A stretch of 64,000 bases of DNA from Sulfurospirillaceae bacterium (GTDB taxonomy: Bacteria; Campylobacterota; Campylobacteria; Campylobacterales; Sulfurospirillaceae), in NCBI GenBank assembly GCA_033723415.1, contig JAWVXD010000004.1:199028-263027 (forward strand). The letters run 5' to 3'. The notes under the pieces are model-generated. The model did no database searches, was not told the origin of the DNA, and saw only the letters and a program-made list of their open reading frames with translations. A program made the position numbers and the translations under genes. Each line of letters begins with the position of its first letter. The first letter of the stretch is position 1. Below are positions 3,580 through 26,603 of this stretch, piece after piece.

Positions 3580-3589
3580 TGTAAGTCAA

Positions 3590-4219: not shown

Positions 4220-4291
4220 TTTCATCCTAACATTTTAAATATATTTGAATTCACTTCTTTCTTGATTCTAGACTATGATGGTAGGATCAAG

Positions 4292-4332
4292 AAAAAAGAT
4301 AGCGAGGGGCTGTTTTTGCTACCTCACTATCT
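4292..4332 (-). terminator. Intrinsic terminator after the malic enzyme gene
   Basis: Minus strand AGATAGTGAGG...CCTCGCTATCT followed by a U-tract. Confidence 0.7.
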
Positions 4333-4341
4333 ATGTATCAA

Positions 4342-7015: not shown

Positions 7016-7197
7016 ATATTAACCTTATTTATGTAAAATGATGAATTAAAAGTTACCAATAGAGATATAGCATTATTTATAGACAAATTCTAATCACTTT
7101 TAAATTGAAATTACTAAAAATAATGTTATCATTCTAAGCTATTTTGTAAAAAATTATATAAGCTTTTTACTTAACATTACTTAACAAAGGACAATTA

Positions 7198-8055: not shown

Positions 8056-8076
8056 AAATATATAAGGAGAACATAA

Positions 8077-8259
8077 ATGAACAAATATGATAAAATCAGA
8101 AAATTTTGCAGAGTATTTAGAATAATTTTGGGAATTGTTCTTATAGGAGTCGGCATTTATTTGAGCAATCCTTGGTTTTACCTAGGGATCATCCCTCTTA
8201 TAGCTGGCCTTGCTAACTTTTGCCCGCTTTGTATCATAAGTAAAAAATGCACAATCTAA
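8077..8259 (+). CDS. Small membrane protein, DUF2892/YgaP family
   Basis: Two hydrophobic helices, FCPLC motif, SD AAGGAG. Confidence 0.75.
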   Translation: MNKYDKIRKFCRVFRIILGIVLIGVGIYLSNPWFYLGIIPLIAGLANFCPLCIISKKCTI

Positions 8260-8287
8260 AGTTTGCCTCTATTTGAGGCAAACTTTA
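8257..8287. terminator. Bidirectional terminator
   Basis: TAAAGTTTGCCTC-tattt-GAGGCAAACTTTA perfect inverted repeat between convergent genes. Confidence 0.8.
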
Positions 8288-9619
8288 ATATTTTGATAAA
8301 TAGTTCGTATCAAACCTATTTTCTATAAAGTCTTTATTATCCATCATATTTAAATGAAAATCTCTCACCGTTGCGACACCTTCAATCTGAAGTTCTACTA
8401 AAGCCTCTCTCATCTTTGCGATCGCTCTAGTCCTATCCTCTCCCCAGACTACCAGTTTCCCTATCATGGAGTCATAATGAGGAGGAATCACATAATTTTG
8501 ATATATGTGAGAATCTATCCTTACATTTCGTCCGCCAGGTGCGATAAACTTGGTAACTTTGCCCGGACTTGGGATAAATTTTACAGAATCTTCAGCAGTG
8601 ATCCTACACTCTATCGAATGACCACTGAGCTTGATTTCCTTTTGACTTGGAAGTTTTTCACCCTCAGCAACTCTTATCATCAACTCTATGATATCAATAC
8701 CGCTTACCATCTCACTGACACAATGTTCAACTTGAAGTCTGGTATTCATTTCCATAAAATAAAAATTCTTTTCACTGTCTAACAAAAATTCAAAAGTTCC
8801 GGCATTTTCATAGCCTATAAATTTAACAGCTTTTATAGCTACGTCATGTAAATTTTTTCTCGTCTTTTCATCTAGTGCGATAGCGGGCGATTCTTCTATA
8901 AGCTTTTGATGACGACGTTGCATAGAACAGTCTCTCTCACCGATATGTATAGCATTGCCATGAGAATCACCTATGATTTGGACTTCTATGTGTCTTGGAT
9001 TTTTGATGAACTTTTCCATATAAAGTGTTCCATCTCCAAAAGCACTCAAAGCTTCACTTTCAGCAGAAAGATATGATACTTCCAAATCTTGCTCTTTTTC
9101 AACAACTCTCATGCCGCGTCCGCCGCCGCCTGCACTTGCTTTGACGATAACGGGATAACCTATCTTTTTAGCAAGTTCTTTTGCTTCTGTTATACCATGA
9201 AGCGCACCTTCACTACCTTCTATGACAGGAACTCCTGCTTTCTTCATAACCTCTTTTGCTTTTGATTTATCACTCATCAAAACCATAGAATCAACAGACG
9301 GTCCTATGAATTTTATGCCGTGAAGACCACAAATCTCTACGAAATCTTGATTTTCACTCAAAAAACCATAACCAGGGAAGATCGCATCACATCCGCTTAT
9401 TTCAGCTGCGCTGATTATAGCAGGAACATTTAGATAACTTTCGCTTGATTTTGCTCCACCGATACAAATACTTGCATCTGCATATTGCAAATAAAGTGCA
9501 TCCTTATCTGCGGTAGAATACACGGCTATCGCCTGTTTTCCCATCTCTTTTATCGTTCTAATTGCTCGAAGTGCTATCTCTCCTCGATTTGCAACAAGAA
9601 TTTTTTGTATTTCTGCCAT
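8285..9619 (-). CDS. accC: Acetyl-CoA carboxylase biotin carboxylase subunit
   Basis: KILVANRGEIA, GGGGRGM, FMEMNTRLQVEH motifs; start at 9619 overlaps the accB stop (TGATG). Confidence 0.96.
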   Translation of the reverse strand: MAEIQKILVANRGEIALRAIRTIKEMGKQAIAVYSTADKDALYLQYADASICIGGAKSSESYLNVPAIISAAEISGCDAIFPGYGFLSENQDFVEICGLHGIKFIGPSVDSMVLMSDKSKAKEVMKKAGVPVIEGSEGALHGITEAKELAKKIGYPVIVKASAGGGGRGMRVVEKEQDLEVSYLSAESEALSAFGDGTLYMEKFIKNPRHIEVQIIGDSHGNAIHIGERDCSMQRRHQKLIEESPAIALDEKTRKNLHDVAIKAVKFIGYENAGTFEFLLDSEKNFYFMEMNTRLQVEHCVSEMVSGIDIIELMIRVAEGEKLPSQKEIKLSGHSIECRITAEDSVKFIPSPGKVTKFIAPGGRNVRIDSHIYQNYVIPPHYDSMIGKLVVWGEDRTRAIAKMREALVELQIEGVATVRDFHLNMMDNKDFIENRFDTNYLSKY

Positions 9620-10083
9620 CAAACTTTCTCCACTACAAACAACGGCATGCCAAACTCTACTGGAGTTCCATCTTCTACAAGAACTTCTGTTATCTTGCAA
9701 GTATATTCAGCTTCTATTTCATTCATAATCTTCATAGCTTCTATAACTGCTACAGGCTGTCCTTTTTGAACAATTGCGCCTACTTTTACAAAAGGTTCAC
9801 TTCCAGGACTTGGAGCTACATAGAAAGTTCCTACCATTGGTGATTTTATAGAATTTGCAGCATTGGAAGAATCTTTTTTTGGAGCTTGTACAGCCACTGG
9901 TTCTTTATCTTCTGAAACAGAAGCTACAGGTGCCTGATATGTTGCAGCAGTAGGTACGGTAAATGAATTATTTTCAAATCCTTTTTGAAGTTCTATAGAA
10001 AATTCACCGTCCTTGATCTTTACTTTTGTGATATTACTTTTATCAAAAAAACGCATCAATTCTCTGATTTCTGTTTTGTTCAT
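9619..10083 (-). CDS. accB: Biotin carboxyl carrier protein
   Basis: SPMVGTFY and EAMKIMNEI biotinylation motif. Confidence 0.97.
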
Positions 10084-11692: not shown

Positions 11693-11797
11693 TTGTTTAA
11701 CGGTAAAAAAATGGAATTTGGTTTTGAGTACGTTTCAAACACAAACAAAGATTGGCTTGATCAAGAGTCTTTGATAAATTTAATAGATTCAATATGA
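11693..11797 (+). pseudogene. pseB: pseB remnant (UDP-GlcNAc 4,6-dehydratase), in-frame internal deletion leaving 34 codons
   Basis: SD AAGGA, TTG start, reads MFNGK/KMEFGFEYVSNTNKDWLDQESLINLIDSI*, i.e. a PseB-like N-terminus joined to a PseB-like C-terminus; ATGA overlap with pseC; expected position between dcd and pseC. Confidence 0.8.
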
Positions 11798-12918
11798 TAC
11801 CTTATAGCAAACAAAGTATCGACAAAGATGATATTGAAGCCGTTGTCAATGCATTGCAAAGTGATTTTTTAACAGGCGGTGACAGAGTAGGAGCATTTGA
11901 AAATGCACTGAGTCACTACTTGGGAGTAAAATACGTTTGTGTGTTTAATTCCGCTACTTCTGCTTTACACATAGCATATCAATGCGTAGGACTACAAAGC
12001 GGTGATGAGATCATAACAACACCTTTAACATTTGCCGCAACTTCAAATGCAGCTTTAATGACCGGGGCAACTCCTGTTTTTTGTGATATAAAATTTGACG
12101 GAAATATAGATGAAAACAGGATAGAAAAACTAATAACTAAAAAAACAAAAGCCGTCGTTCCAGTTGATTTTGGCGGTAATCCTGCAAATTTGACGTCTAT
12201 CAGAGAGATATGCAAAAAATATAACCTTCACATGATAGAAGATGCAGCTCATGCTCTGGGAAGTGAATTAAATGCTAAAAAAGTTGGCTCAATATCCGAT
12301 ATCACGATTTTTAGTTTTCATGCAATAAAGCCGATAACAACATGCGGGGAAGGCGGAGCCATAGCGACAAATGACAAAGAGGTCTATGAAAAAGCAAAAC
12401 TTTTAAGAAGCCATGGGATAACAAAGAAAAAATTGTGGAATTCTGATATGACCGAATTGGGCTACAATTATCGGCTCAATGATGTTTCCTGTGCTCTTGG
12501 ACTGTCCCAGTTGAAAAGATTAGATAGTTTTATAGACAAACGCAACAAGATAGCTTCATATTATAATGAACGCTTTAAAGACAACCCTTACTTTTTTACG
12601 ATTAAAATCCCTTCGTTTGTAAAAAGTTCCTATCATCTATACCCAATACTCTTAGATCGATCCTTTTGGTGCCAGAAGGAGGAGATTTTTGAAAGTCTTC
12701 ACAAAAAAGGAATCGGCGTTCAAGTACACTACAAACCGACATATCAATTTTCATACTATAAAAAAAGATTTAAAGAGATCAGGCTTCAAAATACGGAAGA
12801 TTTTTATAAAGCTGAACTTTCTCTTCCTCTGCATCAAGAGATGAAAGAAGATGATGTAAAATACGTGGCTGATACATTATTTGAAATTTTGGATAAGTAT
12901 AAAGGATGCAAGATATGA
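11794..12918 (+). CDS. pseC: UDP-4-amino-4,6-dideoxy-N-acetyl-beta-L-altrosamine transaminase
   Basis: MIPYSKQSI, NSATSALH, EDAAHALG, FSFHAIKPIT, GYNYRL and QVHYKP motifs. Confidence 0.92.
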   Translation: MIPYSKQSIDKDDIEAVVNALQSDFLTGGDRVGAFENALSHYLGVKYVCVFNSATSALHIAYQCVGLQSGDEIITTPLTFAATSNAALMTGATPVFCDIKFDGNIDENRIEKLITKKTKAVVPVDFGGNPANLTSIREICKKYNLHMIEDAAHALGSELNAKKVGSISDITIFSFHAIKPITTCGEGGAIATNDKEVYEKAKLLRSHGITKKKLWNSDMTELGYNYRLNDVSCALGLSQLKRLDSFIDKRNKIASYYNERFKDNPYFFTIKIPSFVKSSYHLYPILLDRSFWCQKEEIFESLHKKGIGVQVHYKPTYQFSYYKKRFKEIRLQNTEDFYKAELSLPLHQEMKEDDVKYVADTLFEILDKYKGCKI

Positions 12919-13607
12919 ATATAGCCATAATCCCGGCACGTGGAGGAAGCAAAAGGATACCCAGAAAAAATATCAAAGATTTTTGCGGCAAACCACTCAT
13001 AGCATATAGTATACAAGCAGCATTAGATTCAAAGCTTTTTGACAAGGTGATCGTTTCAACTGACGACGAAGAGATCGCGGATATTGCTGAAAGCTATGGC
13101 GCTGAAATCCCATTTGTGAGACCAAAAGAGTTGAGTGATGATTTTACCGGGACAGGAGAAGTTATAGAACACGCACTAGAATTTTTTGAACAACAGAACA
13201 TCTTTTACGATTTTCTCTGTGCTATTTATGCAACTGCCCCGTTAATTCAAACACAATATTTGATCAAAGGTTTTGAAAAACTCAAAAATAGCGATGCCAT
13301 AAATGCATTCTCATGTACATCCATGCCTTTTCCTATACAGAGGACATTTAAGATCACTAAAGAAGAGAGATGCGAGATGTTTTGGCCTGAGAATTTTTAC
13401 AAGCGCAGTCAAGATCTAGAAACGGCATATCAAGATGCGGGACAGTTTTATTGGACCAATCTAAAACGAAAGACAGATGAAATCATGTTTGGCAAAGACA
13501 GCCTTCCCATAATCCTTCCTAGACATCTGGTGCAAGATATTGATACTCCTGAAGATTGGGAAAGAGCTCAATATATGTATAAATCACTCAAAAGCCAAGC
13601 CTCATAA
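12915..13607 (+). CDS. pseF: Pseudaminic acid (nonulosonate) cytidylyltransferase
   Basis: IIPARGGSKRIPRKN, RSQDLE.AYQDAGQFYW and QDIDT.EDW motifs; ATG overlaps the pseC stop. Confidence 0.92.
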   Translation: MNIAIIPARGGSKRIPRKNIKDFCGKPLIAYSIQAALDSKLFDKVIVSTDDEEIADIAESYGAEIPFVRPKELSDDFTGTGEVIEHALEFFEQQNIFYDFLCAIYATAPLIQTQYLIKGFEKLKNSDAINAFSCTSMPFPIQRTFKITKEERCEMFWPENFYKRSQDLETAYQDAGQFYWTNLKRKTDEIMFGKDSLPIILPRHLVQDIDTPEDWERAQYMYKSLKSQAS

Positions 13608-13620: not shown

Positions 13621-13647
13621 TACACTATAATCAGAATATGCCGATAA
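13621..13647 (+). promoter_or_regulatory. Putative sigma28 (FliA) promoter for the neuB-like cassette
   Basis: TACA-N15-GCCGATAA, one mismatch to TAAA-N15-GCCGATAA, in the only intergenic gap before the cassette. Confidence 0.65.
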
Positions 13648-13673
13648 TATGAAATAAATTTATGGATTACCTT

Positions 13674-14543
13674 ATGATACAAAATATAGACAATTTGCCA
13701 TTTTTTATTGCGGAAGTCTCAAGCAATCATAGTCAGAATTTACAAAGAGCTAAAGAATTTATCAAAACCTCATCCAAGATCGGGTGCCATGGAGTAAAGT
13801 TTCAACTCTTTAAAATAGATGAACTCTTCGCGCCTGAAATTTTGGCGAAAAGTGAACTACACAGAAAAAGAAAAGAGTGGGAACTTCCATTGAATTTTTT
13901 GCCTGAGCTCTCACAATATACTCATGAACTAGGTATGCTTTTTTCCTGTACGCCTTTTTATCTCGATGCCGTACAAGAGCTTGAGCCTTTTGTTGATTTT
14001 TACAAGATAGCATCTTATGAGCTTTTATGGGATGATCTTATCATAGCTTGTGCTAAAACCGGCAAAGACTTAGTGCTCTCTACCGGTATGGCAACACTCG
14101 ATGAAATTGCTCATGCTGTAGAAACTTTTAGACAAAACTCTGATGCTAAGCTCACTCTTTTGCACACGATCTCAGGCTATCCGACACCTGTAATTGAAGC
14201 AAACGTCAAAGCTATCGAAACACTCAGAAAAAACTTTCAATGTGACGTTGGATTGTCTGATCATTCGGTCTCTCCTGCTGTGATCGCTAGAGCCATACAC
14301 AAATATGATGCCTCAATGATAGAGTTTCATTTAGATTTAGAGGGTGAAGGTGAAGAGTATGCTAGCGGACATTGCTGGCTTCCAAACCAAATGCAAGATA
14401 CAATAGAACTCATCAAAAATGGTTTTCTTGCAGACGGAGACGGGATCAAAGAGCCGGCATTAAGCGAGATATCTGACCGTGATTGGAGAACAGACCCGAG
14501 TGATGGGCTTAGACCATTTAAACGAGTGAGAGAAACATTTTGA
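13674..14543 (+). CDS. Nonulosonic acid synthase (NeuB/PseI/SpsE family), short form without an obvious SAF domain
   Basis: FIAEVSSNH, VKFQ, KIASYE, LSTGMAT, YPTP and GLSDHS motifs; about 290 aa; alternative start at 13662. Confidence 0.9.
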   Translation: MIQNIDNLPFFIAEVSSNHSQNLQRAKEFIKTSSKIGCHGVKFQLFKIDELFAPEILAKSELHRKRKEWELPLNFLPELSQYTHELGMLFSCTPFYLDAVQELEPFVDFYKIASYELLWDDLIIACAKTGKDLVLSTGMATLDEIAHAVETFRQNSDAKLTLLHTISGYPTPVIEANVKAIETLRKNFQCDVGLSDHSVSPAVIARAIHKYDASMIEFHLDLEGEGEEYASGHCWLPNQMQDTIELIKNGFLADGDGIKEPALSEISDRDWRTDPSDGLRPFKRVRETF

Positions 14544-15481
14544 AACAGCATAATGTTCTCATTCGCTGTGATGCTTCATCGGCAATAGGTTTGGGACATA
14601 TCACTCGTTGTTTGGCTATCGCAAATGATTTTAGACACAATGGCCATCAAGTTTATTTTGCGACAAAAAACTTTGATTTAGGAATCAAGAAAATACAAGA
14701 TAACAATTTTGAAATATTTTTTGCAGATGATGCAAGTTGTGATTATCATAATTGGATCATAAATACCGCAAAAGACAAAGATATCACAATCTTTATAGGT
14801 GATGTTAGAGATGAATTGCCTATAAAGACTATCCAGGAACTCAAAACACTGAATGTTTTAACTGTTGCTATTGATCAGTGTGGTCAATATGCAAAAGAGT
14901 GTGATTTATGCTTTTATCCTCCTCATGCAAAAATAAATAGTAAAGAATATAAAGGCAAAGTATATCAAGGCTTCGAATATGTTTTACTTAGAAATGAGTT
15001 TTATGAGCCATTTAAAAAAATTCAAAATGAAATACCGAATGTTCTAGTTATGATGGGAGGGACAGATCCTTATAGCCTTACTTTACCGGTCATAGAACAA
15101 CTTTTATCTCTTCCTTTAAACATCAATATATCAGTAATACTATCAAAAGGACACGTTGATTATCACAAAATAAGTATTCTTGATAAAAAGATCCGTACTT
15201 ATTCCGATATAAAAGATATGTCAGCTTTTTTAGGCAAAATCGACTTTGCGATTGTCTCATTTGGTATAAGCGCTTATGAAGTCTTGACTAAGAGTATACC
15301 GGCTATACACATCTGCCTAAATGATGATCATTTTCAAGCAAGTGAAATATTTGAAAAAAATAAATTTGCAAAAAGGTTTATGCGACATGATGTGCAAGAT
15401 ATAAAAGCCCTTCAGTTGAATCGTGCCTTTATATCTCCGATAAAAAAGAATAAAATATATGAGGAAATTATATGCGGTTAA
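14540..15481 (+). CDS. PseG/SpsG-like UDP-sugar hydrolase (GT-B fold)
   Basis: IRCDASSAIGLGHITRC, YVLLRNEF and VMMGGTDP motifs. Confidence 0.85.
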   Translation: MKQHNVLIRCDASSAIGLGHITRCLAIANDFRHNGHQVYFATKNFDLGIKKIQDNNFEIFFADDASCDYHNWIINTAKDKDITIFIGDVRDELPIKTIQELKTLNVLTVAIDQCGQYAKECDLCFYPPHAKINSKEYKGKVYQGFEYVLLRNEFYEPFKKIQNEIPNVLVMMGGTDPYSLTLPVIEQLLSLPLNINISVILSKGHVDYHKISILDKKIRTYSDIKDMSAFLGKIDFAIVSFGISAYEVLTKSIPAIHICLNDDHFQASEIFEKNKFAKRFMRHDVQDIKALQLNRAFISPIKKNKIYEEIICG

Positions 15482-16677
15482 TTTGGAATACAATAGCAGA
15501 TAAGTACCATTGCCATAACGAAGAGTATCTCATATATAGAGCTTGTCCCATTTGCAAAGCAGACAACAGCAAAACAATATTAACTATAGACAATTTTCAA
15601 TTTTTTTCTGATGATGTAACATCAAAACAAGTTAATATTCATCAAAAACAATGTAAAAAATGTGGCACGATATATATGAATCCTTGTTATTCAAACAAAG
15701 GTTTTGAAATTCTTTTTGCTGAAGCAGGACAATCTTATGGATCTACCAGTGCAAGACCTACAGAACAAGTAGATTGGCTCAATCAACATAATTTATTGCA
15801 AGACAACAGTAGATTACTGGATATTGGATGCGGCACAGGTAATTTTCTAGCCAGTCTTCCAAAATCTATTAGAAAAGTCGGAGTTGATATAGATGCGCCC
15901 TCTATACAAATAGGAAAAGAGAATCATCAAGAAATTGAATTTATATGTTCTAGTTTTGAAGACTTAGAGTATAAAGAGGAAATAGATACTATCACTATGT
16001 TTCATGTTTTAGAACATCTACCCAAACCCTTAGAAACTCTTCAGAGGTTATACAAACTTTCAAATACAAACACTCAACTTGTTATAGAAGTACCCATCAT
16101 TGAAAATGGATTGACAAACGATATAAATGGTTTTTTTAGTGCTCAACATCTAACTCACTTCAGCAGGATGAGTTTTAAAAATGTTTTGGCTCTCAGCGGA
16201 TGGGGAGTTATTGATTGGTTGGAACAAAAAGACTATAATGGATGTAGGGTATTAGCGAAAAAACAATCAAAAACACAAGATATTGAAATAGGTAGCGAAG
16301 AATTCTTGAATACGTACAACTATTTAAGTTATTGGTATCATTCAGTCGCTAATATCGAAAAGAAAATTTTGGATATAACTTCAAAAAGATGTATTATTTG
16401 GGGTGGTGGTATGCATTTGGAATTTTTATATCAAATGACATCGCTCTTTAACAAAGGAATTGAGTTTATTGTTGTAGATAGCGACAAAAATAAACAGCAT
16501 AAATCTTGGAGAGGGATAAATATCTATCCTCCGAGTATTCTTGAGGATTTTACAGAAAATATACCATTGATAATTTCAAGTTACGGCGGACAAAATTCTA
16601 TATCCGTTGCAGCTACCTCTTTAGGCATAAAAGCAAACAACATTATCAAACTCTATGATAATTTAAGAGTGTATTAA
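15472..16677 (+). CDS. Class I SAM-dependent methyltransferase with N-terminal Zn-binding and C-terminal Rossmann-like region
   Basis: CPIC and CKKC pairs, LDIGCGTG, FHVLEH, IEVP and IIWGGG motifs. Confidence 0.85.
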   Translation: MRLIWNTIADKYHCHNEEYLIYRACPICKADNSKTILTIDNFQFFSDDVTSKQVNIHQKQCKKCGTIYMNPCYSNKGFEILFAEAGQSYGSTSARPTEQVDWLNQHNLLQDNSRLLDIGCGTGNFLASLPKSIRKVGVDIDAPSIQIGKENHQEIEFICSSFEDLEYKEEIDTITMFHVLEHLPKPLETLQRLYKLSNTNTQLVIEVPIIENGLTNDINGFFSAQHLTHFSRMSFKNVLALSGWGVIDWLEQKDYNGCRVLAKKQSKTQDIEIGSEEFLNTYNYLSYWYHSVANIEKKILDITSKRCIIWGGGMHLEFLYQMTSLFNKGIEFIVVDSDKNKQHKSWRGINIYPPSILEDFTENIPLIISSYGGQNSISVAATSLGIKANNIIKLYDNLRVY

Positions 16678-16737
16678 CAAAGGAATAAACTATGAATCAA
16701 TTTATAAAATCAGCTATAAAGACAAGGATCAAATAAG

Positions 16738-18432
16738 ATGTTATATACTACCGCTATTATCGCAAATATGATTAAGCAATTCACTGATAATCTTTATACG
16801 TATCCTGGCGGGACTATTGCGCCATTGTATTGTGAAGCAAAAAAACTTGGCTTAAATATTGTTGTTGCTAGGCAAGAACAAGGAGCTGGATACATGGCAT
16901 TGGCAGAAGCTGCTTTACATAATCGTCCATCATTTGTTGCTGTCACCAGCGGTCCGGGTGCGACTAATATCATAACTCCTATAGCAGATGCTTTTTACGA
17001 TAGTGTTCCTCTTGTTGTTATTTGCGGTCAAGTCTCGACTAATGATTTAAATCGTAGCCAGACAATAAGACAAAGAGGATTTCAAGAAGTACCTATTACA
17101 AAACTGGTTGAACATATTACAAAAAAAACTTTTCAGCCTAAAACTTTCAAAGATTTGGTTTCTATGCTACAAGTTGCTGTAGAAATTGCCAACACTGGAA
17201 GGAAAGGTCCTGTTGTCATAGATCTTCCGATGGATGTTCAACTTCAACAAATTCAAGATGACGATCTGGATAAATTCAACCCTAGAGTATCTTTTCCACA
17301 ATCTGACAAAAGTATTTCTTCAGGCATAGATTTTAACTTCATTGCACGAACTATCAATAATTCACAAAAACCGCTTATTTTAGTAGGTGGAGGTGCACAA
17401 GAGGATTGGGCACAAATCAGAAGATTGCTTGAAAAGACTCATATCCCGGCAATCTCAAGTTTAAGAGGAATAGGTATATTAAATAATTCTCTTGACTATG
17501 GATGGATCGGGCACACGGGAACACCATATGCCAATACTCTTTTATATGAAGCCGATACCGTTATTGTACTTGGAAGTAGGCTTGACGTAAGACAAACAGG
17601 TACGAAAACAGATATCTTTAAAACTAAAAATATTATTCATGTTGATATTGATGAAGAAGAATTAAAATACTGCCGAATTGATAACAATATTAAAATAAAT
17701 ATACCGATTAAAACCTTTTTAGACACAATACAAGACCTTATACATCTACAAAACATAGACAAATGGATACAGTATGCCCAAGAACTAAAACTAAGACTAA
17801 AACTTGACGATATTGCAAAAGAAAAATCAAATAAACCGACTCCAAAGCAAATCTTGTCATTTATAAATGAAATGCTTCAAGATAAAAAATACTATATTGC
17901 CACAGGAGTAGGTCTTCATCAACATTGGGTTGCTAGATATGTAGATTTTGACAACGCCAAATCTAGATTTTTTACATCAGCAGGACATGGAACTATGGGA
18001 TATGGTTTACCAAGTGCTCTTGGTCTGAGTTATATTGAAAAAGACAATACTTTAACAATCTGCATTGACGGGGATGGATCGTTTCAGATGAATTTACAAG
18101 AATTAGCCTTAGTCAAAACAATGAATTTAAAAATAAAAATTTTAATTATAGACAATAACCGTCTTGGACTCGTATCGCAATTTCAAAATATCACGTTTGA
18201 TGATGATCCTACAACAGGACATATAATCAATCCTGATTTTGTAAAAATAGCCCAATCATACGGTATTAAAGCATATAGCATCAATACTTTTGATAAAGGT
18301 ATTATTGAAGATTGGATTACAAGTGAAGAAGCAAGCTTATTACACGTAAAAATAGAACACGATACACCACTTTCACCTATGTTGCTTGGTGGTCAAGAAT
18401 TGAATCAGATGTGGTATGAAAATGAACAATAA
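16738..18432 (+). CDS. Thiamine diphosphate-dependent enzyme (acetolactate synthase / carboligase-like)
   Basis: YPGG, RQEQGA, VTSGPGATN, GFQE, GHGTMGYGLP and GDGS...NN ThDP motif. Confidence 0.9.
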   Translation: MLYTTAIIANMIKQFTDNLYTYPGGTIAPLYCEAKKLGLNIVVARQEQGAGYMALAEAALHNRPSFVAVTSGPGATNIITPIADAFYDSVPLVVICGQVSTNDLNRSQTIRQRGFQEVPITKLVEHITKKTFQPKTFKDLVSMLQVAVEIANTGRKGPVVIDLPMDVQLQQIQDDDLDKFNPRVSFPQSDKSISSGIDFNFIARTINNSQKPLILVGGGAQEDWAQIRRLLEKTHIPAISSLRGIGILNNSLDYGWIGHTGTPYANTLLYEADTVIVLGSRLDVRQTGTKTDIFKTKNIIHVDIDEEELKYCRIDNNIKINIPIKTFLDTIQDLIHLQNIDKWIQYAQELKLRLKLDDIAKEKSNKPTPKQILSFINEMLQDKKYYIATGVGLHQHWVARYVDFDNAKSRFFTSAGHGTMGYGLPSALGLSYIEKDNTLTICIDGDGSFQMNLQELALVKTMNLKIKILIIDNNRLGLVSQFQNITFDDDPTTGHIINPDFVKIAQSYGIKAYSINTFDKGIIEDWITSEEASLLHVKIEHDTPLSPMLLGGQELNQMWYENEQ

Positions 18433-19132
18433 ACTCGTATTTGTAACAGGTGCATCAAAAGGCATTGGGGAAAGCATAGCAAATCATTTTTCTGCTAAAG
18501 GTTATCATGTTGCATACGGGTACAATAAAACACATCCTAAAAATAAAAATTTTTATGTTCATGTAGATATATCAGATAGGGACTCTATTCAAAATGCTGT
18601 TGCACTAACTGAAAAAAAATTTGGAAAATCTATAGATATTCTAGTAAATAATGCAGCCATCTCTCAAGAAAAACCTTTTATGACGATTACTGATGATGAC
18701 TGGAGTAAAATGCTAGATATTAATCTTCAAGGTGCTTTCAGATTTACCCAGGAAGTACTCACGAATATGATCAAAAACAACTGGGGAAGAATCATCAATA
18801 TCACCTCTATCGGCGGTCAATGGGGAGGATTTAACCAGGTTCACTATGCAGCATCAAAAGCAGCACTCATAAATTTCACTCAATCCATAGCAAAAATATA
18901 CTCAAACAAAGGAATTACATCTAATGCTATTGCTATAGGTCTTGTAGCAACGGATATGTCTGCAAATGAACTCCACACTGAAGGCGGAAAAGAAAAAGTG
19001 AAAAACATACCGATAGGAAGGGTCGGCACCAAAGATGAAATAGCAACTATATCTCTTTTTTTGGCATCATGCGAATCTTCTTACATAACAGGGCAAACGA
19101 TCAATGCAAACGGAGGAATGTACTTTGGATAA
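18416..19132 (+). CDS. Short-chain dehydrogenase/reductase (FabG-like)
   Basis: TGASKGIG, NNAA, YAASK and ITGQTINANGG motifs. Confidence 0.92.
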   Translation: MKMNNKLVFVTGASKGIGESIANHFSAKGYHVAYGYNKTHPKNKNFYVHVDISDRDSIQNAVALTEKKFGKSIDILVNNAAISQEKPFMTITDDDWSKMLDINLQGAFRFTQEVLTNMIKNNWGRIINITSIGGQWGGFNQVHYAASKAALINFTQSIAKIYSNKGITSNAIAIGLVATDMSANELHTEGGKEKVKNIPIGRVGTKDEIATISLFLASCESSYITGQTINANGGMYFG

Positions 19133-20345
19133 GACATTACTTGTTTTAGGTGCAGGTCCTGATCAAATTCCGGGGATTGTTAAAGCTAAAGAAATGGGAA
19201 TTTATACCATAGTCCTAGATGGAAATCCTGATGCAGCAGGGAAAGAGTTTGCAGACGAGTTTCACATCGTTAGCATTAAGCACATGCAACAAATTGAAGA
19301 CTTTATCAAAACACGCCTAAAAAGAAGAGTAGATGGAGTTATCGCCTTTGGCGTCGATATACCCTCAATCATTGCTCAAACTGCAGATATGCTCAATGTT
19401 AATTTCACGATACCTCTTGCAAGCGCACAGCTCAGCGAAGACAAATTTAGCTCAAAAGAGTTTATGAAAAAACACAAGATTGCTATTCCTAAATACCATC
19501 TTGTCAATAATGTTGAAGATATCCGCACCTTTATCGAAAATAATGATTTACCGGTTGTTATAAAACCGGTTGACAACTCTGCTTCAAGAGGTATCAGCTA
19601 TACAAACGATATAGAAAATATTGAGTCTTTTTACAACTATGCACTTGAGTTCAGTAATCAAAAAAAGGTACAGGTGGAAAAATATTTGCCGGGTCCACAA
19701 ATAAGCACCGAATCTTTTGTAATCAATGGGGAAATACACAACATTGGATTTGCAGACAGAAACTATACTCAAATGCAAAGATTCTTGCCAAATATTATAG
19801 AAGACGGCGGTGATCTGCCTTCGCTTCATATGCAAGAAAAGCATAAAAATCAACTCAAGCACTACCTTGAGATAATAGCAAAAGAATTAAACATCCACAA
19901 TGGCGTCATCAAAGGCGACATTGTTCTGTATAACGATGATTTATATATTATCGAGTTTGCACTCAGACTCTCGGGAGGAAATTTTTCTACCGTAGAGATA
20001 CCTTATAGCACTGGTGTCGATTTTTTGAAGATAGCTATTAAACTGCACCTAAATCTAGAAGTATTTGAAGACGAACTCAAACAAACTAAAAATGCTTTTA
20101 TCTCTTTACGATACAAGTTTCTTGAAGAAGAGAGTGGTGGGCTTATCACAGAAATCGAGTTACCAAGAGGCGATCAAAACATCATTTTGTCAAATTTTCA
20201 TGCACGTGTAGGAGAGAGAGTTGGAGAAAAAACGACAGATCACGCAAAACGGCTTGGATTTGTAATCGCAAAAGGAAATGATAGAGACGATGCTATCAGC
20301 AATGCACAAAAATTTTTAGATAAAGTGAAGATATCTTTTGAGTAA
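19125..20345 (+). CDS. ATP-grasp domain ligase
   Basis: LGAGPDQ, DKFSSK, PVVIKPVDNSASRG, EKYLPGPQISTE and IEFALRLSGG motifs; TTG start with SD GGAGGA. Confidence 0.88.
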   Translation: MDKTLLVLGAGPDQIPGIVKAKEMGIYTIVLDGNPDAAGKEFADEFHIVSIKHMQQIEDFIKTRLKRRVDGVIAFGVDIPSIIAQTADMLNVNFTIPLASAQLSEDKFSSKEFMKKHKIAIPKYHLVNNVEDIRTFIENNDLPVVIKPVDNSASRGISYTNDIENIESFYNYALEFSNQKKVQVEKYLPGPQISTESFVINGEIHNIGFADRNYTQMQRFLPNIIEDGGDLPSLHMQEKHKNQLKHYLEIIAKELNIHNGVIKGDIVLYNDDLYIIEFALRLSGGNFSTVEIPYSTGVDFLKIAIKLHLNLEVFEDELKQTKNAFISLRYKFLEEESGGLITEIELPRGDQNIILSNFHARVGERVGEKTTDHAKRLGFVIAKGNDRDDAISNAQKFLDKVKISFE

Positions 20346-22242
20346 AGTATTTTATAAGATATATCATGGAAATTTAGCATTTTCGGCCATTGAGGAAGAA
20401 GCTCTTTGTGAAGTGATCGATAAGACGTATTTTGCTCTTCTTGTCCTTATTGAGACAGAAGGTATAAAAGTAGGCTTAGAACTCAGCGGTTACACACTGG
20501 AGAAAATCCAAGAACTGAGACCTTTGTGGATCAAACAATTTCAAAAACTACACAAAAAAGGACTTATTGAACTCATAGGTAGCGGTTATATGCAGATGAT
20601 TGCTCCTTTAGTCCCTTATGATGTCAATAAACAAAATCAACTGCTTGGATTAAAAGTATATAAAAATATTTTGGGCATAACTCCCTCTATAGTCTATGTT
20701 AATGAACAAACATTTTCTTTATCTCTAGTTGATTTGTATCATGAGACAGGATATAAAGCAATTGCTATGGAGTGGAATAATGCGTATGCACTGCACCAAG
20801 AGTGGCCAAAGCATTATGCTAATCAACCGGTATTAATCAAAGGATTAAAAAAGTCTATGCCTGTTTTGTGGACAGATTCTATCCTTTTTCAACAATTTCA
20901 AAGAACTGTGCATAATCAGCAAACCATAGATGACTATGAAGTTTTTTTTCAAGATTACTTACACAATGAATATAAATATGCACCGATCTATAGCTCAGAT
21001 ATTGAAATATTTAACTACCGTCCTGGAAGATTTGAAACTGAAGCGGTTATCGAACACGACGAATGGAAAAATATATCCGCATTATGCAAATTCATACAAC
21101 AACACGGCTCATTCGAGCTTCCCTCTCATGTCCTAGAAACAGGATTAAAATCTGATATCGTACTATCTTTAACAGATGCGTCAAAACCTATTTTGGTAAA
21201 GAAACAAGACAAATACTCTCTTAGCAGATGGGCGGCTTGCGGACATGATGCCAATTATATAAACACATTGGCTTTAAATTATTATCATACAATCGACAAA
21301 TCAAATCTAGAAGAATGGAAATTATGTTTGAAATATTGGGGGAGTGATTATCGAACACACACCACTCAAAAAAAATGGAAAGATGCAATAGCATTTCTGA
21401 CATCAAAGATACCAAACACTGACAAAGAAGTCGAAATAGGCAAAGATTGTCTCTATATAAATAAAATAAAAGATAAGCTTGTATTTGAAAAAGATGAGTA
21501 CAAACTTGTGTTCTTATCCAACAAAGGGCTTGCCTTAGATAGCATTGCTATAAAAAACAAAAAACTGCCTTTTGGAACCATGAAGCACGGAAGCCTGTCA
21601 AATATAGGTTACGTTGCCGATTTTTTCACCGGTTCAAGCGTCATAGAATCAGCCGCAACAAAAAAAATCACTGACTTGGTTTGCGTTGACAATTATCGAT
21701 TTGTAGCACTTGAGCAAGGAAGATTCAAGCTTAGTACGACTATTAATATGAAAGGTATCGCTACTGAATACAAGGCTTGGATCATTGATACAGAAAAAAA
21801 TTCACTCACCTTGCAGATAGAACTCCAACTTCATGAGTTAATACAAGGGAGCATACGCCTTGGGGCCTTCACATTAACCTCAGACAATACACAAGCTCCT
21901 CTTTGGTATAAGTGTAAAAATGGGGGAGAAGATTATGAACAATACAAACTAACTAATAAAAAAATAGACCAACATCTTTCTAAATCGCTGCTACAGAGTA
22001 GCACAAGCGGACTTGGGATAACAGACGGTACGATTATATTTGCAGAAGGCGAAAAAACAATCTTATCTTTAGATATCAATCAAAAATATTCATATCCTTT
22101 TGTGATGTTGCAAAACCATCCTGATTTTGATAAGAATCTCACAAGATTATTTTTTAGTCTCCAAGAAATTGATGATACACTCAAACATAATGAACAAAAA
22201 CTAAAAAGAAAACTCTGCTTGGAATACTCCATCAATTTTTAA
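20338..22242 (+). CDS. Glycoside hydrolase family 57 / deacetylase-like barrel protein of unknown specificity
   Basis: YHGNL.FSAI, ELSGYTLE, ELIGSGY.Q.I.PL, NEQ and SSDIE motifs resemble GH57-type conserved blocks. Confidence 0.6.
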   Translation: MSKVFYKIYHGNLAFSAIEEEALCEVIDKTYFALLVLIETEGIKVGLELSGYTLEKIQELRPLWIKQFQKLHKKGLIELIGSGYMQMIAPLVPYDVNKQNQLLGLKVYKNILGITPSIVYVNEQTFSLSLVDLYHETGYKAIAMEWNNAYALHQEWPKHYANQPVLIKGLKKSMPVLWTDSILFQQFQRTVHNQQTIDDYEVFFQDYLHNEYKYAPIYSSDIEIFNYRPGRFETEAVIEHDEWKNISALCKFIQQHGSFELPSHVLETGLKSDIVLSLTDASKPILVKKQDKYSLSRWAACGHDANYINTLALNYYHTIDKSNLEEWKLCLKYWGSDYRTHTTQKKWKDAIAFLTSKIPNTDKEVEIGKDCLYINKIKDKLVFEKDEYKLVFLSNKGLALDSIAIKNKKLPFGTMKHGSLSNIGYVADFFTGSSVIESAATKKITDLVCVDNYRFVALEQGRFKLSTTINMKGIATEYKAWIIDTEKNSLTLQIELQLHELIQGSIRLGAFTLTSDNTQAPLWYKCKNGGEDYEQYKLTNKKIDQHLSKSLLQSSTSGLGITDGTIIFAEGEKTILSLDINQKYSYPFVMLQNHPDFDKNLTRLFFSLQEIDDTLKHNEQKLKRKLCLEYSINF

Positions 22243-22339: not shown

Positions 22340-23398
22340 ATGAAAATATTAGTTACGGGAGCAGCTGGTTTTATCGGTTACCATCTTTCTAAAAAACTTT
22401 TAGAAAGAGGAGATGAAGTCATAGGCATAGATAATCTCAATAATTATTATGATATAACTTTAAAATACGCAAGATTAAATGAACTTGGCATTAAAAAAGA
22501 AGAGATAAAAGACAATATCTTAGCTCCTTCAAAAACTTATTTAAAACATAAGTTCATCAAAATGGATTTAGTCGATCAAACAGCGCTGCTGAACCTTTTC
22601 AATACAGAAAACTTTGATGCAGTATGCAATTTGGCAGCACAAGCAGGAGTCCGCTACTCCTTAGAAAATCCTCATGCTTATATAGATTCAAATATAGTAG
22701 GATTTTTAAATCTTTTAGAAGCTTGTAGACACAATAGTATGAAAAATCTATGCTTTGCATCAAGTTCTTCTGTTTACGGGTTAAATGAATCTCAGCCTTT
22801 TAACACAAAAGATCATACGGACCATCCGGTCAGTTTATACGCTGCAACAAAAAAATCAAATGAGATGATGGCACATGCTTATTCTCATCTTTACAATATT
22901 TCAACTACCGGTTTAAGATTTTTTACCGTTTACGGACCATGGGGCAGACCGGATATGGCGCCTATGCTTTTTGCGGATGCAATACTACATGACAAGAGTA
23001 TTAAAGTATTCAATAACGGAGACATGAGTAGAGATTTTACATATATAGATGATATTATTGACGGCGTTGTTAAAGTGATTGACAATCCGGCGCAGGCAAA
23101 TAAAAATTTTAATCCAAAAGACTCAAATCCGGCTATTTCCTCTGCTCCTTACCGACTCTATAATATAGGCAATAACTCTCCGGTTAAATTGATGGATTTT
23201 ATTAGTATATTGGAAGATTCAATAGGCATCAAAGCCAAAAAAAAATATTTACCGATGCAAGATGGTGATGTTGTTTCCACATATGCCGACACTAATGATT
23301 TAATTCATGATTTCAGTTATAAACCTGAAACTGATTTATCCGAAGGGATTAGAAAATTTGTGGCATGGTATAAATCGTTTTATGGAGTAGAGATATGA
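22340..23398 (+). CDS. NAD-dependent epimerase, UDP-glucuronate 4-epimerase type
   Basis: [23 protein letters not shown] and [15 protein letters not shown] motifs. Confidence 0.93.
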
Positions 23399-24599: not shown

Positions 24600-26603
24600 A
24601 TGAATCAAATAGAACAAAAAGCTATAGAAACTTTTCAAAACAATTTATCGCTTTTATCGGAAAAACATCCGGAAGTTTTTAGAAAAGTAGATATTTTAAA
24701 TCAAGCTATTGAAAATGGCTCTTACAAAGAACGATATGCGCTAGAATACAAAGATGGGTATTTTGATATTTTAGATACTGTTACAAATGATTGGCTATAT
24801 GGAAGTTCAAGCATAGATCAAGCTAAAAAAGCTGCAAAAGATATAAATTATAAAAAAAGTACCGGAGTAATTGAAACATTTTATAACTACAATTTTACAG
24901 AAGAGGCAATACAAGCAGCAAATAAAGAAGATCCTACCGCTTCACCGTTTGTTCTAACAGCCCCTGTGATCGGATTTGTTGGTAAACTTATTGACAAAAA
25001 TACGATCATGAAGCATATCTTCAAATTCATATTTTTTGGAGCGGGATTAGGAGTTCATCTTCAAACCATACATGAAAAGATAGAAGCGCCTATGTATCTT
25101 ATCATAGAAGATAATCTTGAAATTTTCAGATTATCCTTGTTTGTGACAGATTATTCAAAGATAGCAGATAACAGTGAACTTTATTTTAGTATTATGTCTC
25201 AGGATGATGAATTCAAACAGGTGTTCGACACATTTTATCACAATAGCTTTATAAGAAACAATTACATAAAATACTCGGTTTTTTATCAGCACTACAGAGA
25301 GAAGATAAGTAAAATCCAAAATTTCATAGTGACTCAATCAAGCAATACTTACCTTCACGATAAACTACTGATGAAAAATATACGTACCATCCAAACTATC
25401 CACGACAAATATAATTTTTTGGATGTCTCAAAACATCATAACGAGAATGCGACTTTTTCAAAAAGACCAATCATCCTCGTAGCTGCAGGGCCTTCACTGA
25501 CGAAGGAAATCAAGTGGCTCAAACAAAATGCTCCTTTTGCAATCATTGTTGCTCTTTTTATGATCGTTCCCACACTTGAAAAGCATGGTATAAAACCTGA
25601 TATAGTCATACATATTGATGAAGGATCGTTTGCTGTACAACAAACTTTAGAAAACGTCAACAATAGTTTCTTTGCTGACAACATACTTTTGTTGGCTCCA
25701 AGTGTGGATATGACAATATTTTCAAACCTCACCTCAGAAAAAAATATTTTCGTATTTGAAGATAGAACACGATATAGGTTCAATAAAGGATATCTAGAAT
25801 CTTTTAGTGTCGGTGAAATAGCCTATGCATTATCTCTTATATTTGGAGTAAAAGATCTGTATCTTTTAGGTTTGGATCTCGCACTGGATGCACAAACCAA
25901 AAAAACTCACGCAGGCGGACACTTAAATGAAAACTCTCAAGCTAATACAAAAGATGCCGCTTCTTCAGAAGTTGTTTCATTGAGAGATAGTGAATTTATC
26001 ATCAAAGGAAATTTTCAAGATCTTGTTCCTACCACTCCTTTATTTGAGATGTCGATACATGTCTTAAATGATTTTACAAAAAGATTTAAACAAGCATATC
26101 AAAATATTTACAACCTCAGCGACGGGGCATATTTCACAGATACTATTCCGACAAAATCCGATACGGTTGATCTATCGTCATATGGCAATAAAAACAGTGT
26201 TGTCCTAAAAGAAGAACTTCACGATTTTTTTATGAAAAATGCTTCAAAAGAGATGGATGAAGATGAAAGAAATGCTTTCGAAGAAAGAATCAAAGAGACA
26301 AAAGACAAAAGAGAAATGGTTCTCAAATTTGCAGGGCAAAGATATCCTTCTATGGATCAATTTAGAGAAGCATTTGTTGAAACCGCAGGGCATTTAATCT
26401 CAACTCAGGATGAAAAAACCAGTGAGCTTGCCGGAATATTTATAATATATCTTGAGAATATCGGCGGATATATTGGAGACTTTTTTAACACCGAAAATAT
26501 TGAAAATCCAAAAAGGAACATCAAGCACTTTCAGAAAATTATCGTTTCTCAGTTATTAAAAATCATAGATAAATATTTAAGGATTTTAGAAGAGAAAAGT
26601 TAG
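24600..26603 (+). CDS. Motility-associated factor (Maf) flagellin glycosyltransferase
   Basis: AAGPSL, GIKPD and LLGLDLA...THA motifs of the Maf/DUF115 family; adjacent to flagellin. Confidence 0.85.
   Translation: MNQIEQKAIETFQNNLSLLSEKHPEVFRKVDILNQAIENGSYKERYALEYKDGYFDILDTVTNDWLYGSSSIDQAKKAAKDINYKKSTGVIETFYNYNFTEEAIQAANKEDPTASPFVLTAPVIGFVGKLIDKNTIMKHIFKFIFFGAGLGVHLQTIHEKIEAPMYLIIEDNLEIFRLSLFVTDYSKIADNSELYFSIMSQDDEFKQVFDTFYHNSFIRNNYIKYSVFYQHYREKISKIQNFIVTQSSNTYLHDKLLMKNIRTIQTIHDKYNFLDVSKHHNENATFSKRPIILVAAGPSLTKEIKWLKQNAPFAIIVALFMIVPTLEKHGIKPDIVIHIDEGSFAVQQTLENVNNSFFADNILLLAPSVDMTIFSNLTSEKNIFVFEDRTRYRFNKGYLESFSVGEIAYALSLIFGVKDLYLLGLDLALDAQTKKTHAGGHLNENSQANTKDAASSEVVSLRDSEFIIKGNFQDLVPTTPLFEMSIHVLNDFTKRFKQAYQNIYNLSDGAYFTDTIPTKSDTVDLSSYGNKNSVVLKEELHDFFMKNASKEMDEDERNAFEERIKETKDKREMVLKFAGQRYPSMDQFREAFVETAGHLISTQDEKTSELAGIFIIYLENIGGYIGDFFNTENIENPKRNIKHFQKIIVSQLLKIIDKYLRILEEKS

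What the first reader, a model, noticed from the sequence alone, without database searches (positions are those of the whole stretch)
13621..22242. Candidate undescribed flagellin nonulosonic-acid tailoring cassette (ThDP enzyme + SDR + methyltransferase + ATP-grasp + GH57-like; no PseH)
Seen: seven co-oriented, mostly overlapping genes follow a sigma28-like promoter, between pseC/pseF and ugd-maf-flagellin. Known: the canonical Pse pathway is PseB-C-H-G-I-F, with the GNAT PseH acetylating the amine made by PseC; ATP-grasp ligases form amides; ThDP carboligases make hydroxy-acyl or branched units (glyoxylate carboligase, YerE). No GNAT is present here. Inference: the ThDP enzyme and SDR build a small hydroxy acid (e.g. 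glycerate or 2,3-dihydroxy-2-methylbutyrate), the methyltransferase modifies it, and the ATP-grasp enzyme amidates the amino sugar in place of PseH. The GH57/deacetylase-fold protein may free a second amine. The product would be a new N-acyl nonulosonate placed on flagellin by Maf. A YerE/YerF-like branched sugar is an alternative.
Basis: partly seen in the sequence, partly recalled or inferred. Interest (0 to 1): 0.85.

Follow-up and report, generated by a model that had tools for sequence, protein, structure and literature searches.

The report
Shewanella-type flagellin sugar-tailoring operon
These seven genes match the gene types of a known but chemically unsolved flagellin-decoration locus of Shewanella oneidensis and likely hang a long sugar-derived acid chain, rather than the usual acetyl group, on a sialic-acid-like flagellar sugar; here the pathway's normal first gene is deleted, so a stand-in enzyme would be needed.

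Summary
The seven genes are real and intact: short NeuB, PseG-like hydrolase, methyltransferase, ThDP enzyme, SDR, ATP-grasp, GH57. No PseH is present. The set is not undescribed. It matches the published S. oneidensis sfmABCDE/SO_3268 flagellin locus by gene type and size, and for GH57 by sequence motifs. It recurs as a module in many environmental loci, and this scan met it before on other DNA.

Its small hydroxy acid and deacetylase ideas do not: the Shewanella add-on is C9H16O7, and the GH57 keeps both glycosidase residues in 26 of 26 sequences, placing it in an orphan 'alpha-galactosidase-related' group.

Best model (inferred): the ligase amidates the PseC amine with a sugar acid, probably a hexuronate; GH57 unmasks its aldehyde; the ThDP enzyme adds two carbons; the SDR reduces; the methyltransferase methylates. 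This gives exactly C9H16O7, but two other routes give the same formula.

New here: pseB is reduced to a 34-codon in-frame remnant, also seen in a second study's contig. An FnlA-type LPS dehydratase may stand in, or the pathway may be silent. New member of a known kind, with a directly testable mechanism.

The parts
11693..11797 (+). pseB remnant: 34-codon in-frame mini-ORF, start of pseB joined to its last ~30 codons, still ATGA-coupled to pseC
   Evidence: 43-50% identity to the C-terminus of relatives' PseB; first codons match a relative's pseB start; SD-like AAGGA and 4-nt overlap; junction spanned by contigs of two studies, one probably the source
11794..12918 (+). PseC aminotransferase
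   Evidence: TIGR03588 506 bits, over cut-off
12906..13607 (+). PseF cytidylyltransferase
   Evidence: TIGR03584 339 bits, over cut-off
13621..13647 (+). sigma28-like promoter candidate
   Evidence: 1 mismatch to consensus; same position as the FliA site reported before sfmA and in 2 of 75 loci; weak alone
13662..14543 (+). Short NeuB-family synthase without SAF domain (SfmA type); true start may be 13674
   Evidence: PF03102 only; only NeuB in the genome; 6198 relatives at E<=1e-60 among 7999 scored, the 120 listed being 283-313 aa
14540..15481 (+). PseG-like UDP-sugar hydrolase
   Evidence: TIGR03590 E 6e-40, just under cut-off
15472..16677 (+). SAM methyltransferase with the fold of nucleotide-sugar C-methyltransferases
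   Evidence: Model pLDDT 78; top Foldseek hits MtmC, KijD1, TcaB9, TM 0.62-0.68; four Cys invariant in 9 of 9
16738..18432 (+). Acetolactate-synthase-like ThDP carboligase (SfmB type)
   Evidence: TPP N/M/C domains; Glu47 and GDG motif kept; in the module clade, 100/99
18416..19132 (+). FabG-like SDR reductase (SfmC type)
   Evidence: PF13561, TIGR01830 under cut-off; TGxxxGIG and YxxxK motifs
19104..20345 (+). ATP-grasp carboxylate-amine ligase (SfmE type)
   Evidence: ATP-grasp_4 + LAL_C2; profile hits 4DIM (E 2.5e-55) and L-amino acid ligases 3VOT and BacD
20338..22242 (+). GH57 'alpha-galactosidase-related' glycosidase (SO_3268 type), Glu123/Asp221
   Evidence: Invariant residues; five conserved regions match the published group; fold Z 33 to GH57; 10 of 12 listed differences in a related contig are synonymous
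22340..23398 (+). UDP-glucuronate 4-epimerase-like extended SDR (label from my own knowledge); candidate supplier of the acid
   Evidence: PF01370; homologues of 55-75% identity next to or inside the module in L026, L049, L066, L067, L091
23395..24564 (+). UDP-glucose 6-dehydrogenase (ugd)
   Evidence: NF011631 E 1e-193, under cut-off; TIGR03026 over cut-off
24600..26603 (+). Maf flagellin glycosyltransferase
   Evidence: PF20157 + PF01973
26724..27872 (-). Flagellin, the only copy found
   Evidence: PF00669/PF00700; single tblastn hit in the genome; 38 Ser/Thr in residues 160-300

Best explanation
The cassette is a copy of the Shewanella sfm-type module and likely makes a pseudaminic acid whose N7 carries a long polyhydroxy acyl chain, attached by the ATP-grasp ligase in place of PseH acetylation and predicted to be put on flagellin by Maf. 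Shown: gene set, domains, catalytic motifs, co-occurrence, absence of PseH. Inferred steps: (1) a 4,6-dehydratase/5-epimerase (normally PseB; here possibly the FnlA-type LPS enzyme) and PseC make the UDP-4-amino sugar. (2) The ligase joins that amine to a sugar-acid carboxyl, most plausibly a UDP-hexuronate from the adjacent ugd and epimerase. (3) The GH57 glycosidase removes the aglycone and frees the aldehyde. (4) The ThDP enzyme adds a pyruvate-derived C2 unit. (5) The methyltransferase adds one methyl and the SDR reduces the ketone, order unknown. (6) PseG-like hydrolase, cap-less NeuB and PseF finish and activate the sugar. Odds: same kind of system as sfm about 0.9; ligase makes an N-acyl group from a sugar-derived acid about 0.6; hexuronate route in detail about 0.35.
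For: Sizes and types against S. oneidensis: NeuB 290/293, ThDP 581/564, SDR 255/238, MT 395/401, ATP-grasp 412/413; SO_3268 'alpha amylase domain', 1917 nt, against 634 aa. The S. oneidensis 638-aa GH57 shares all five conserved regions with the window protein. sfm deletions remove or shrink the flagellin mass shift. In 33 non-redundant short-NeuB loci of 12 kb or more: SDR 25, ATP-grasp 25, ThDP 24, GH57 23, all four 17 (lower bounds, flanks cut at 10 kb). PseH absent from 81 of 81 loci and 5 of 5 module genomes. The Shewanella add-on C9H16O7 gave no oxonium ion and is lost easily, which fits an acyclic N-acyl group lost as a lactone (my inference); hexuronate + C2H4O + H2 + CH2 - H2O = C9H16O7. 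The C-C step is exchangeable: ALS-type 10, transketolase-type 14, both 0 of 33; L071 has a transaldolase/FSA and L066 a KduI-like protein in that slot; all can act on aldehydes (own knowledge). The ligase mutant is milder than the ThDP and MT mutants, which fits ligation first and dead-end intermediates afterwards (inference). T. denticola carries a methoxy-trihydroxy-hexanoyl nonulosonate, a chemical precedent.
Against: No Shewanella protein sequence could be aligned; apart from the GH57 motifs, orthology rests on type, size and neighbourhood. The window MT is only 24-25% identical to the MTs in the sfmD position of sfm-ordered loci L073 and L079, so the product may differ from Shewanella's. 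Two other routes give the same formula. Epimerase or ugd lie beside only 6 of 33 loci; 0 of 8 relatives' maf-flagellin stretches is a small control, and the epimerase is unlinked in 4 of 5 module genomes and not found in the fifth. The MT fold is that of enzymes acting on NDP-keto sugars, which suits a branched-sugar route as well. No GH57 is known to me to hydrolyse a nucleotide sugar. pseB is deleted, and S. oneidensis delta-pseB is non-motile with unmodified flagellin. Some loci sit by wzx/wzy (L092, L098), so the sugar is not flagellum-specific.
Confidence: 0.6

Rival explanations
1. Branched-sugar route (YerE/YerF-like): the ThDP enzyme adds a C2 unit to a nucleotide 4-keto sugar, the C-methyltransferase and SDR finish it, and GH57 transfers it as a glycoside onto the nonulosonate.
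For: YerE-like and split transketolase enzymes branch keto sugars. The MT folds like NDP-sugar C3-methyltransferases. 4-ketohexose + glycolaldehyde + H2 + CH2 - H2O also gives C9H16O7. Two module ThDP enzymes (L067, L085) group with the genome's own LPS-locus enzyme.
Against: No oxonium ion of the outer unit in Shewanella. Leaves the ligase (25 of 33 loci) and the free amine unexplained. The pyruvate-type Yer product, C8H14O5, does not fit. The window enzyme lies in a separate clade (long branch, only two outgroups).
Confidence: 0.18
2. The acyl chain is built as a free acid from a 2-keto-3-deoxy acid (for example 3-deoxy-heptulosonate) by acetolactate-synthase-type addition and reduction, then ligated last.
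For: DAH + C2H4O + H2 - H2O = C9H16O7. Best PDB profile hits are acetohydroxyacid synthases. L064/L081 carry a DAHP-synthase-I family gene.
Against: Gives GH57 no substrate. Predicts equal phenotypes for ligase and ThDP/SDR/MT mutants, which is not what was reported. Transketolase-type and FSA substitutes suit aldehyde acceptors better (own knowledge).
Confidence: 0.1
3. One reading: ThDP enzyme and SDR make a small hydroxy acid (glycerate or dihydroxy-methylbutyrate), and the GH57-like protein deacetylates a second amine.
For: Polysaccharide deacetylases share the barrel (Z 22.4). Glyoxylate carboligase scores with the ThDP profile (E 1e-86). The window's own glycan has not been measured.
Against: Formula mismatch with the Shewanella add-on. 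Shewanella keeps one N-acetyl group. GH57 Glu/Asp invariant in 26 of 26, CE4-type motifs not found, GH57 folds score Z 26-33. Glu47 is kept, which glyoxylate carboligase lacks (lack recalled).
Confidence: 0.07
4. Whatever the module makes elsewhere, it is silent in this organism because pseB is deleted. This rival concerns activity here, not the chemistry.
For: 34-codon remnant; no PseB over cut-off in a 100%-complete genome, against 4 of 4 relatives and 5 of 5 module genomes with pseB beside pseC. pseB is essential in Shewanella.
Against: All downstream genes, maf, flagellin, fliA, flhA and hook/rod genes are intact. The deletion is in frame and keeps coupling to pseC. An FnlA-like 4,6-dehydratase/5-epimerase is present (TIGR04130 508 bits on a contig-edge fragment, cut-off 730; two N-termini at contig ends). 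GH57 differences in a related contig are 10 of 12 synonymous against 22% expected (one low-depth contig, 12 of its 15 differences listed, selection may predate the deletion).
Confidence: 0.25

Closest known systems
Shewanella oneidensis MR-1 flagellin modification locus: sfmABCDE (SO_3261-3265), SO_3266-3269, pseC, pseB, maf-1/maf-2 (PMC3765264; PMC3120886; bioRxiv 10.1101/2023.12.03.569772)
   Same: Short NeuB, ThDP enzyme, FabG-like SDR, ~400-aa MT, ~412-aa ATP-grasp, ~635-aa GH57, PseC, Maf, sigma28-like site before the synthase, no PseH.
   Different: Different gene order; separate canonical PseF and PseG-like genes instead of a 574-aa SpsF-type protein (SO_3269, fusion inferred from similar loci); one MT, probably of another subfamily than SfmD; one Maf; adjacent epimerase and ugd; pseB deleted.
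Canonical CMP-Pse5Ac7Ac pathway PseB-C-H-G-I-F
   Same: PseC and PseF pass the equivalog cut-offs; PseG-like and NeuB-family enzymes present; relatives carry this pathway in the same maf-flagellin slot.
   Different: No PseH, synthase lacks the SAF domain and is far below the PseI cut-off (160 against 340 bits), PseB lost, five extra enzymes.
GH57 'alpha-galactosidase-related enzymes' (PMC6037648)
   Same: All five conserved regions, catalytic Glu123/Asp221, length about 640 aa.
   Different: That paper leaves the specificity undefined and does not mention gene context. Here the group is tied to nonulosonate loci.
Acyl-branched sugar pathways YerE/YerF, ErwE/ErwF, MMAR_2332 (PMC9306805, PMC12247030)
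   Same: ThDP carboligase followed by a reductase in a surface-glycan cluster.
   Different: No CDP-3,6-dideoxy-4-keto-glucose genes in the cassette; ligase, GH57 and NeuB added; window enzyme in a separate clade from the genome's own LPS-locus enzyme.
Treponema denticola flagellin glycan, 2-methoxy-4,5,6-trihydroxy-hexanoyl nonulosonate (as named in PMC13439194)
   Same: Methylated polyhydroxy acyl group on a pseudaminic-type core.
   Different: Shorter chain; its biosynthetic genes were not compared here.

Membership tests
sfm-type module | NeuB-domain synthase of about 290 aa without SAF domain | tested here: met
   293 aa, PF03102 only; SfmA 290 aa
sfm-type module | Linked ThDP enzyme, FabG-like SDR, SAM MT and ATP-grasp genes | tested here: met
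sfm-type module | Linked ~640-aa GH57 (SO_3268 type) | tested here: met
   Conserved regions match S. oneidensis Q8EC76; equating Q8EC76 with SO_3268 rests on length and annotation
sfm-type module | No PseH; beside maf and flagellin | tested here: met
sfm-type module | Sequence orthology to SfmA-E | not testable with these tools
sfm-type module | A dehydratase supplying the PseC substrate (PseB) | tested here: inconclusive
   pseB is a remnant; FnlA-like candidate present but fragmented
sfm-type module | Flagellin carries 274 + 236/250/264 Da glycan | not testable with these tools
   Needs mass spectrometry
Canonical Pse5Ac7Ac pathway | PseH GNAT acetyltransferase | tested here: not met
Canonical Pse5Ac7Ac pathway | Full-length PseI with SAF domain | tested here: not met
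   TIGR03586 160 bits against 340; only NeuB in the genome
GH57 alpha-galactosidase-related group | CSR-1 to CSR-5 fingerprints with catalytic Glu (CSR-3) and Asp (CSR-4) | tested here: met
GH57 alpha-galactosidase-related group | GH57 barrel, helical bundle and C-terminal beta domain | tested here: met
   pLDDT 89.6; Z 33.2, rmsd 3.0 over 343 residues to 7E1Y; Foldseek top hit 1K1W
CE4/NodB deacetylase | TFDDG and HSxxH metal motifs (motifs recalled) | tested here: not met
   Exact-pattern search found neither; the best deacetylase fold scores Z 22.4, under GH57
YerE-like branching enzyme | Groups with YerE-like enzymes; linked CDP-4-keto-3,6-dideoxyglucose genes | tested here: inconclusive
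   Separate clade from the genome's LPS-locus enzyme, but few outgroups and a long branch; no such genes in the cassette
Nucleotide-sugar C-methyltransferase (TcaB9/KijD1/MtmC) | Three-domain Zn-containing fold; C- rather than O-methylation | tested here: inconclusive
   Fold and four Cys met; identity only 13-15%, regiochemistry untested

The most novel reading that the evidence does not exclude
The sfm-type module builds an N-acyl group on pseudaminic acid by amide-linking a nucleotide uronate, cutting off its nucleotide with a GH57 glycosidase and chain-extending the freed aldehyde with interchangeable ThDP, transketolase or aldolase enzymes. This would solve the Shewanella 236-Da moiety as a methyl-8-deoxyoctonoyl group and give the orphan GH57 group a biosynthetic function. 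In this genome the flagellar pathway would also have outsourced its first step to an LPS FnlA after a clean pseB deletion.
Probability: 0.3. Interest if true: 0.8.

Novelty: new member of a known kind. Interest (0 to 1): 0.5.

Why it matters
The Shewanella flagellin glycan has had a formula but, in the papers I could search, no structure or pathway since 2013. The module is widespread: about 1200 metagenome stretches match the synthase patterns, in both flagellar and O-antigen/capsule settings. Linking it to the orphan GH57 group and to exchangeable C-C-forming enzymes gives a formula-exact route that a few enzyme assays can test. An ATP-grasp route to N-acyl nonulosonates would be a CoA-independent way to diversify sialic-acid-like sugars. 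The natural pseB deletion tests whether LPS and flagellar sugar pathways share their first intermediate.

Tried and rejected
- The one genome-contig scan, run with the single ATP-grasp protein, returned only 8 distant loci.
- The S. oneidensis chromosome could not be reached through its plasmid record, so no Sfm sequences were aligned.
- Genome-wide fitness tables of PMC3219624 (s013-s015) were too large to read; whether ugd/epimerase mutants (SO_4686/4687) share the sfm motility defect stays unchecked. Sun et al. 2013 is not held; Kurniyati et al. 2017 was seen only as a reference.
- No paper held all of FnlA, PseB, arabino and dehydratase; that FnlA gives the PseB product is recalled and supported here only by the family name. 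The last search was swamped by unrelated 'SFMA' papers.
- No RNA holder listed.
- Composition shows no island signal: cassette genes 32-40% GC, contigs 31-38%.
- Sigma70 promoter and terminator scans were at chance level.
- The sigma28-like site is not a general feature of the module (2 of 75 loci).
- An assembly artefact for the pseB deletion is disfavoured, not excluded: one contig from the probable source and one 239-nt, depth-3.4 contig from another study span it.
- Shared contig lengths between NeuB and GH57 hit lists (19 shared) are only a rough hint and were not counted as evidence.
- No complex prediction was run; no binding is claimed.

Full report
OBSERVATION. The seven genes are present, intact and co-oriented at the stated coordinates; five of six junctions overlap. 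They encode a 293-aa NeuB-family synthase without SAF domain, a PseG-like hydrolase, a 401-aa methyltransferase (MT), an acetolactate-synthase-like ThDP enzyme, a FabG-like SDR, an ATP-grasp ligase and a 634-aa GH57-family protein. PseC and PseF lie upstream; an epimerase, ugd and maf follow, and the single flagellin is convergent on the minus strand. The genome (17 contigs, 100% complete by markers) has no PseH over cut-off and only this NeuB. The sigma28-like site exists but is statistically weak. Flagellin matches suggest a Campylobacterales-type host (inference).

IT IS A DESCRIBED KIND OF LOCUS. Bubendorfer et al. 2013 (PMC3765264; read: outline, passages, sections 5, 6, 8, 10 part 1, 12, 13) describe sfmABCDE of S. 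oneidensis: NeuB 290 aa, ThDP 581, 3-oxoacyl-ACP reductase 255, MT 395, ATP-grasp 412, with a FliA site, beside maf and without PseH. Supplement rows of PMC3219624 list SO_3268 as 'alpha amylase domain protein', 1917 nt, and SO_3269 as a 1725-nt cytidylyltransferase. The supplement of PMC6037648 lists a 638-aa S. oneidensis protein in the GH57 'alpha-galactosidase-related' group, whose five conserved regions match the window protein. I could not align Sfm sequences, so other orthology rests on type, size and context. The flagellin glycan there is C11H18N2O6 (mono-N-acetyl nonulosonate) plus C9H16O7 with up to two more methyls, structure unsolved. A 2023 preprint (passages, section 14) still calls these genes of unknown function. 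Searches found no paper with the chemistry; one search was uninformative; the library lacks most subscription papers. Earlier notes of this scan reached the same match on other genomes; I saw them after reaching it myself.

IT IS A CONSERVED, PATCHY MODULE. The best 80 of 556 metagenome stretches encoding a relative of the synthase plus one plasmid locus reduce to 69 non-redundant loci, 33 of them 12 kb or longer. In those 33: SDR 25, ATP-grasp 25, ThDP 24, GH57 23, PseC 21, PseG-like 21, PseB 18, and all of ThDP/SDR/ATP-grasp/GH57 17 (lower bounds, as flanks stop at 10 kb or contig ends). ALS-type (10) and transketolase-type (14) enzymes never co-occur. A PseH profile from four relatives found nothing in six frames of 81 loci and found 5 of 5 controls, four of them its own training set. 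Pfam scans of 158 of 287 unassigned neighbour ORFs plus 8 fusions found one GNAT, in L021, which is not a short-NeuB locus. Five whole genomes with the synthase carry the module with pseB-pseC and lack PseH; G570, same order, has nearly the window's gene order ending in maf and flagellin, with a transketolase pair in place of the ALS-type gene. The synthase was not found in 400 phylum genomes, in 1 of 400 order genomes (overlapping sample) and in 4 of 301 of another phylum; GH57 in 0 of 13 congeners. Relatives fill the maf-flagellin slot with canonical Pse or Leg genes, or leave it empty. This suggests lateral exchange (inference). Some loci lie by wzx/wzy.

ANATOMY. GH57: model pLDDT 89.6; nearest folds are GH57 enzymes (Z 33.2, rmsd 3.0, 343 residues), deacetylases lower (Z 22.4). 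Glu123 and Asp221 are invariant in 26 of 26 and sit in the regions named as nucleophile and proton donor. So it is most likely a glycosidase or transglycosylase, not a deacetylase. PMC6037648 (passages, supplement part 11) leaves this group's specificity undefined and does not mention gene context. ThDP: canonical Glu47 and GDG motif; groups with 11 of 13 module enzymes (100/99), apart from the genome's AHAS and its LPS-locus enzyme (long branch, two outgroups, midpoint root). Ligase: closest solved relatives are 4DIM and L-amino acid ligases. MT: folds like the nucleotide-sugar C3-methyltransferases MtmC, KijD1 and TcaB9 (TM 0.62-0.68); MTs are the most variable part, and the window's belongs to a 9-member group distinct from those in the sfmD position of L073/L079.

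MECHANISM (inferred). C9H16O7 as an N-acyl group means an acid C9H18O8 with one double-bond equivalent, so acyclic. The missing oxonium ion and easy loss of the outer unit fit this. Hexuronate plus a pyruvate-derived C2 unit, one reduction and one methyl gives the formula exactly and uses every enzyme: ligase on the uronate carboxyl, GH57 to free the aldehyde, ThDP enzyme, SDR, MT. Support is circumstantial: ugd and an epimerase follow the cassette here, with homologues beside 6 of 33 loci and inside the operon in L026, against 0 of 8 relatives' slots; a transaldolase/FSA (L071) or KduI-like gene (L066) can replace the ThDP gene; the ligase mutant is milder than the ThDP and MT mutants, with the SDR mutant in between. 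Against: a DAH-based acid and a branched-octose glycoside give the same formula; the MT fold points to NDP-keto-sugar substrates; the epimerase is unlinked in 4 of 5 module genomes and not found in the fifth. Branched-sugar chemistry is from PMC9306805 (parts 1-2 of 3) and PMC12247030 (passages). The T. denticola precedent is from passages of PMC13439194. PMC13317340 (passages) gave nothing on this module.

THE pseB DELETION. The gap before pseC holds a 34-codon ORF (11693-11797) made of the first codons of pseB joined in frame to its last ~30, with ribosome site and ATGA coupling kept. No PseB passes the cut-off in the genome, whereas 4 of 4 relatives with the closest Maf have one. The probable source run agrees at depth 88, and a 239-nt contig from another study spans the junction. 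An FnlA-like 4,6-dehydratase/5-epimerase is present in fragments at contig ends; from my own knowledge FnlA gives the same keto sugar as PseB. fliA, flhA and hook/rod genes are intact, and a related contig shows 10 of 12 listed GH57 differences synonymous. But PseB is essential in Shewanella (PMC3120886, passages), so a silent pathway has perhaps one chance in four.

VERDICT. Real; a new member of the genetically known sfm-type system, not an undescribed cassette. The added value is the link to the orphan GH57 group, a formula-exact and testable route for the unsolved side chain, and a natural pseB deletion. Unseen supplements that bear on the claim: the fitness tables of PMC3219624 and the preprint's supplements. 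Interest 0.5.

Noticed in passing
   Followed up: yes
G000 C16:1-939, ends of C5 and C6: FnlA-like dehydratase whose N-terminus appears at two contig ends, suggesting two copies or a collapsed repeat in LPS loci.
   Followed up: partly
G000 C6:9116-10864: Second non-AHAS ThDP enzyme beside CDP-glucose 4,6-dehydratase-like and RfbH-like genes: a probable YerE/ErwE-type branched-sugar cluster in the LPS locus.
   Followed up: partly
window 24600-26603; L108-L111, L119: The Maf is 60-65% identical to Mafs of four relatives in which the cassette was not found; in G408 no sugar genes lie beside maf. This Maf type is not tied to the cassette.
   Followed up: partly
L071:7366-8043; L066:8688-9937: A transaldolase/FSA gene, or a KduI-like gene plus SDR, stands where the ThDP gene usually is.
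   Followed up: partly
L064 and L081, about 1000-10000: Two transketolase-type pairs, two iron-containing alcohol dehydrogenases and a DAHP-synthase-I family gene in one module locus.
   Followed up: no
L031, L074, L090, L092 downstream of the short NeuB: Recurring SpsF-type cytidylyltransferase + class III aminotransferase + aldo-keto reductase trio, fused in part in L074.
   Followed up: no
L068:14031-16058; L141:8293-10254: LicD-like, NUDIX and IspD-like genes precede the transketolase pair (Pfam-checked in L068 only), hinting at a CDP-alditol branch.
   Followed up: no
L104 (NZ_CP026539.1): The full module lies on a Solidesulfovibrio plasmid, the only plasmid hit among 72,556.
   Followed up: partly
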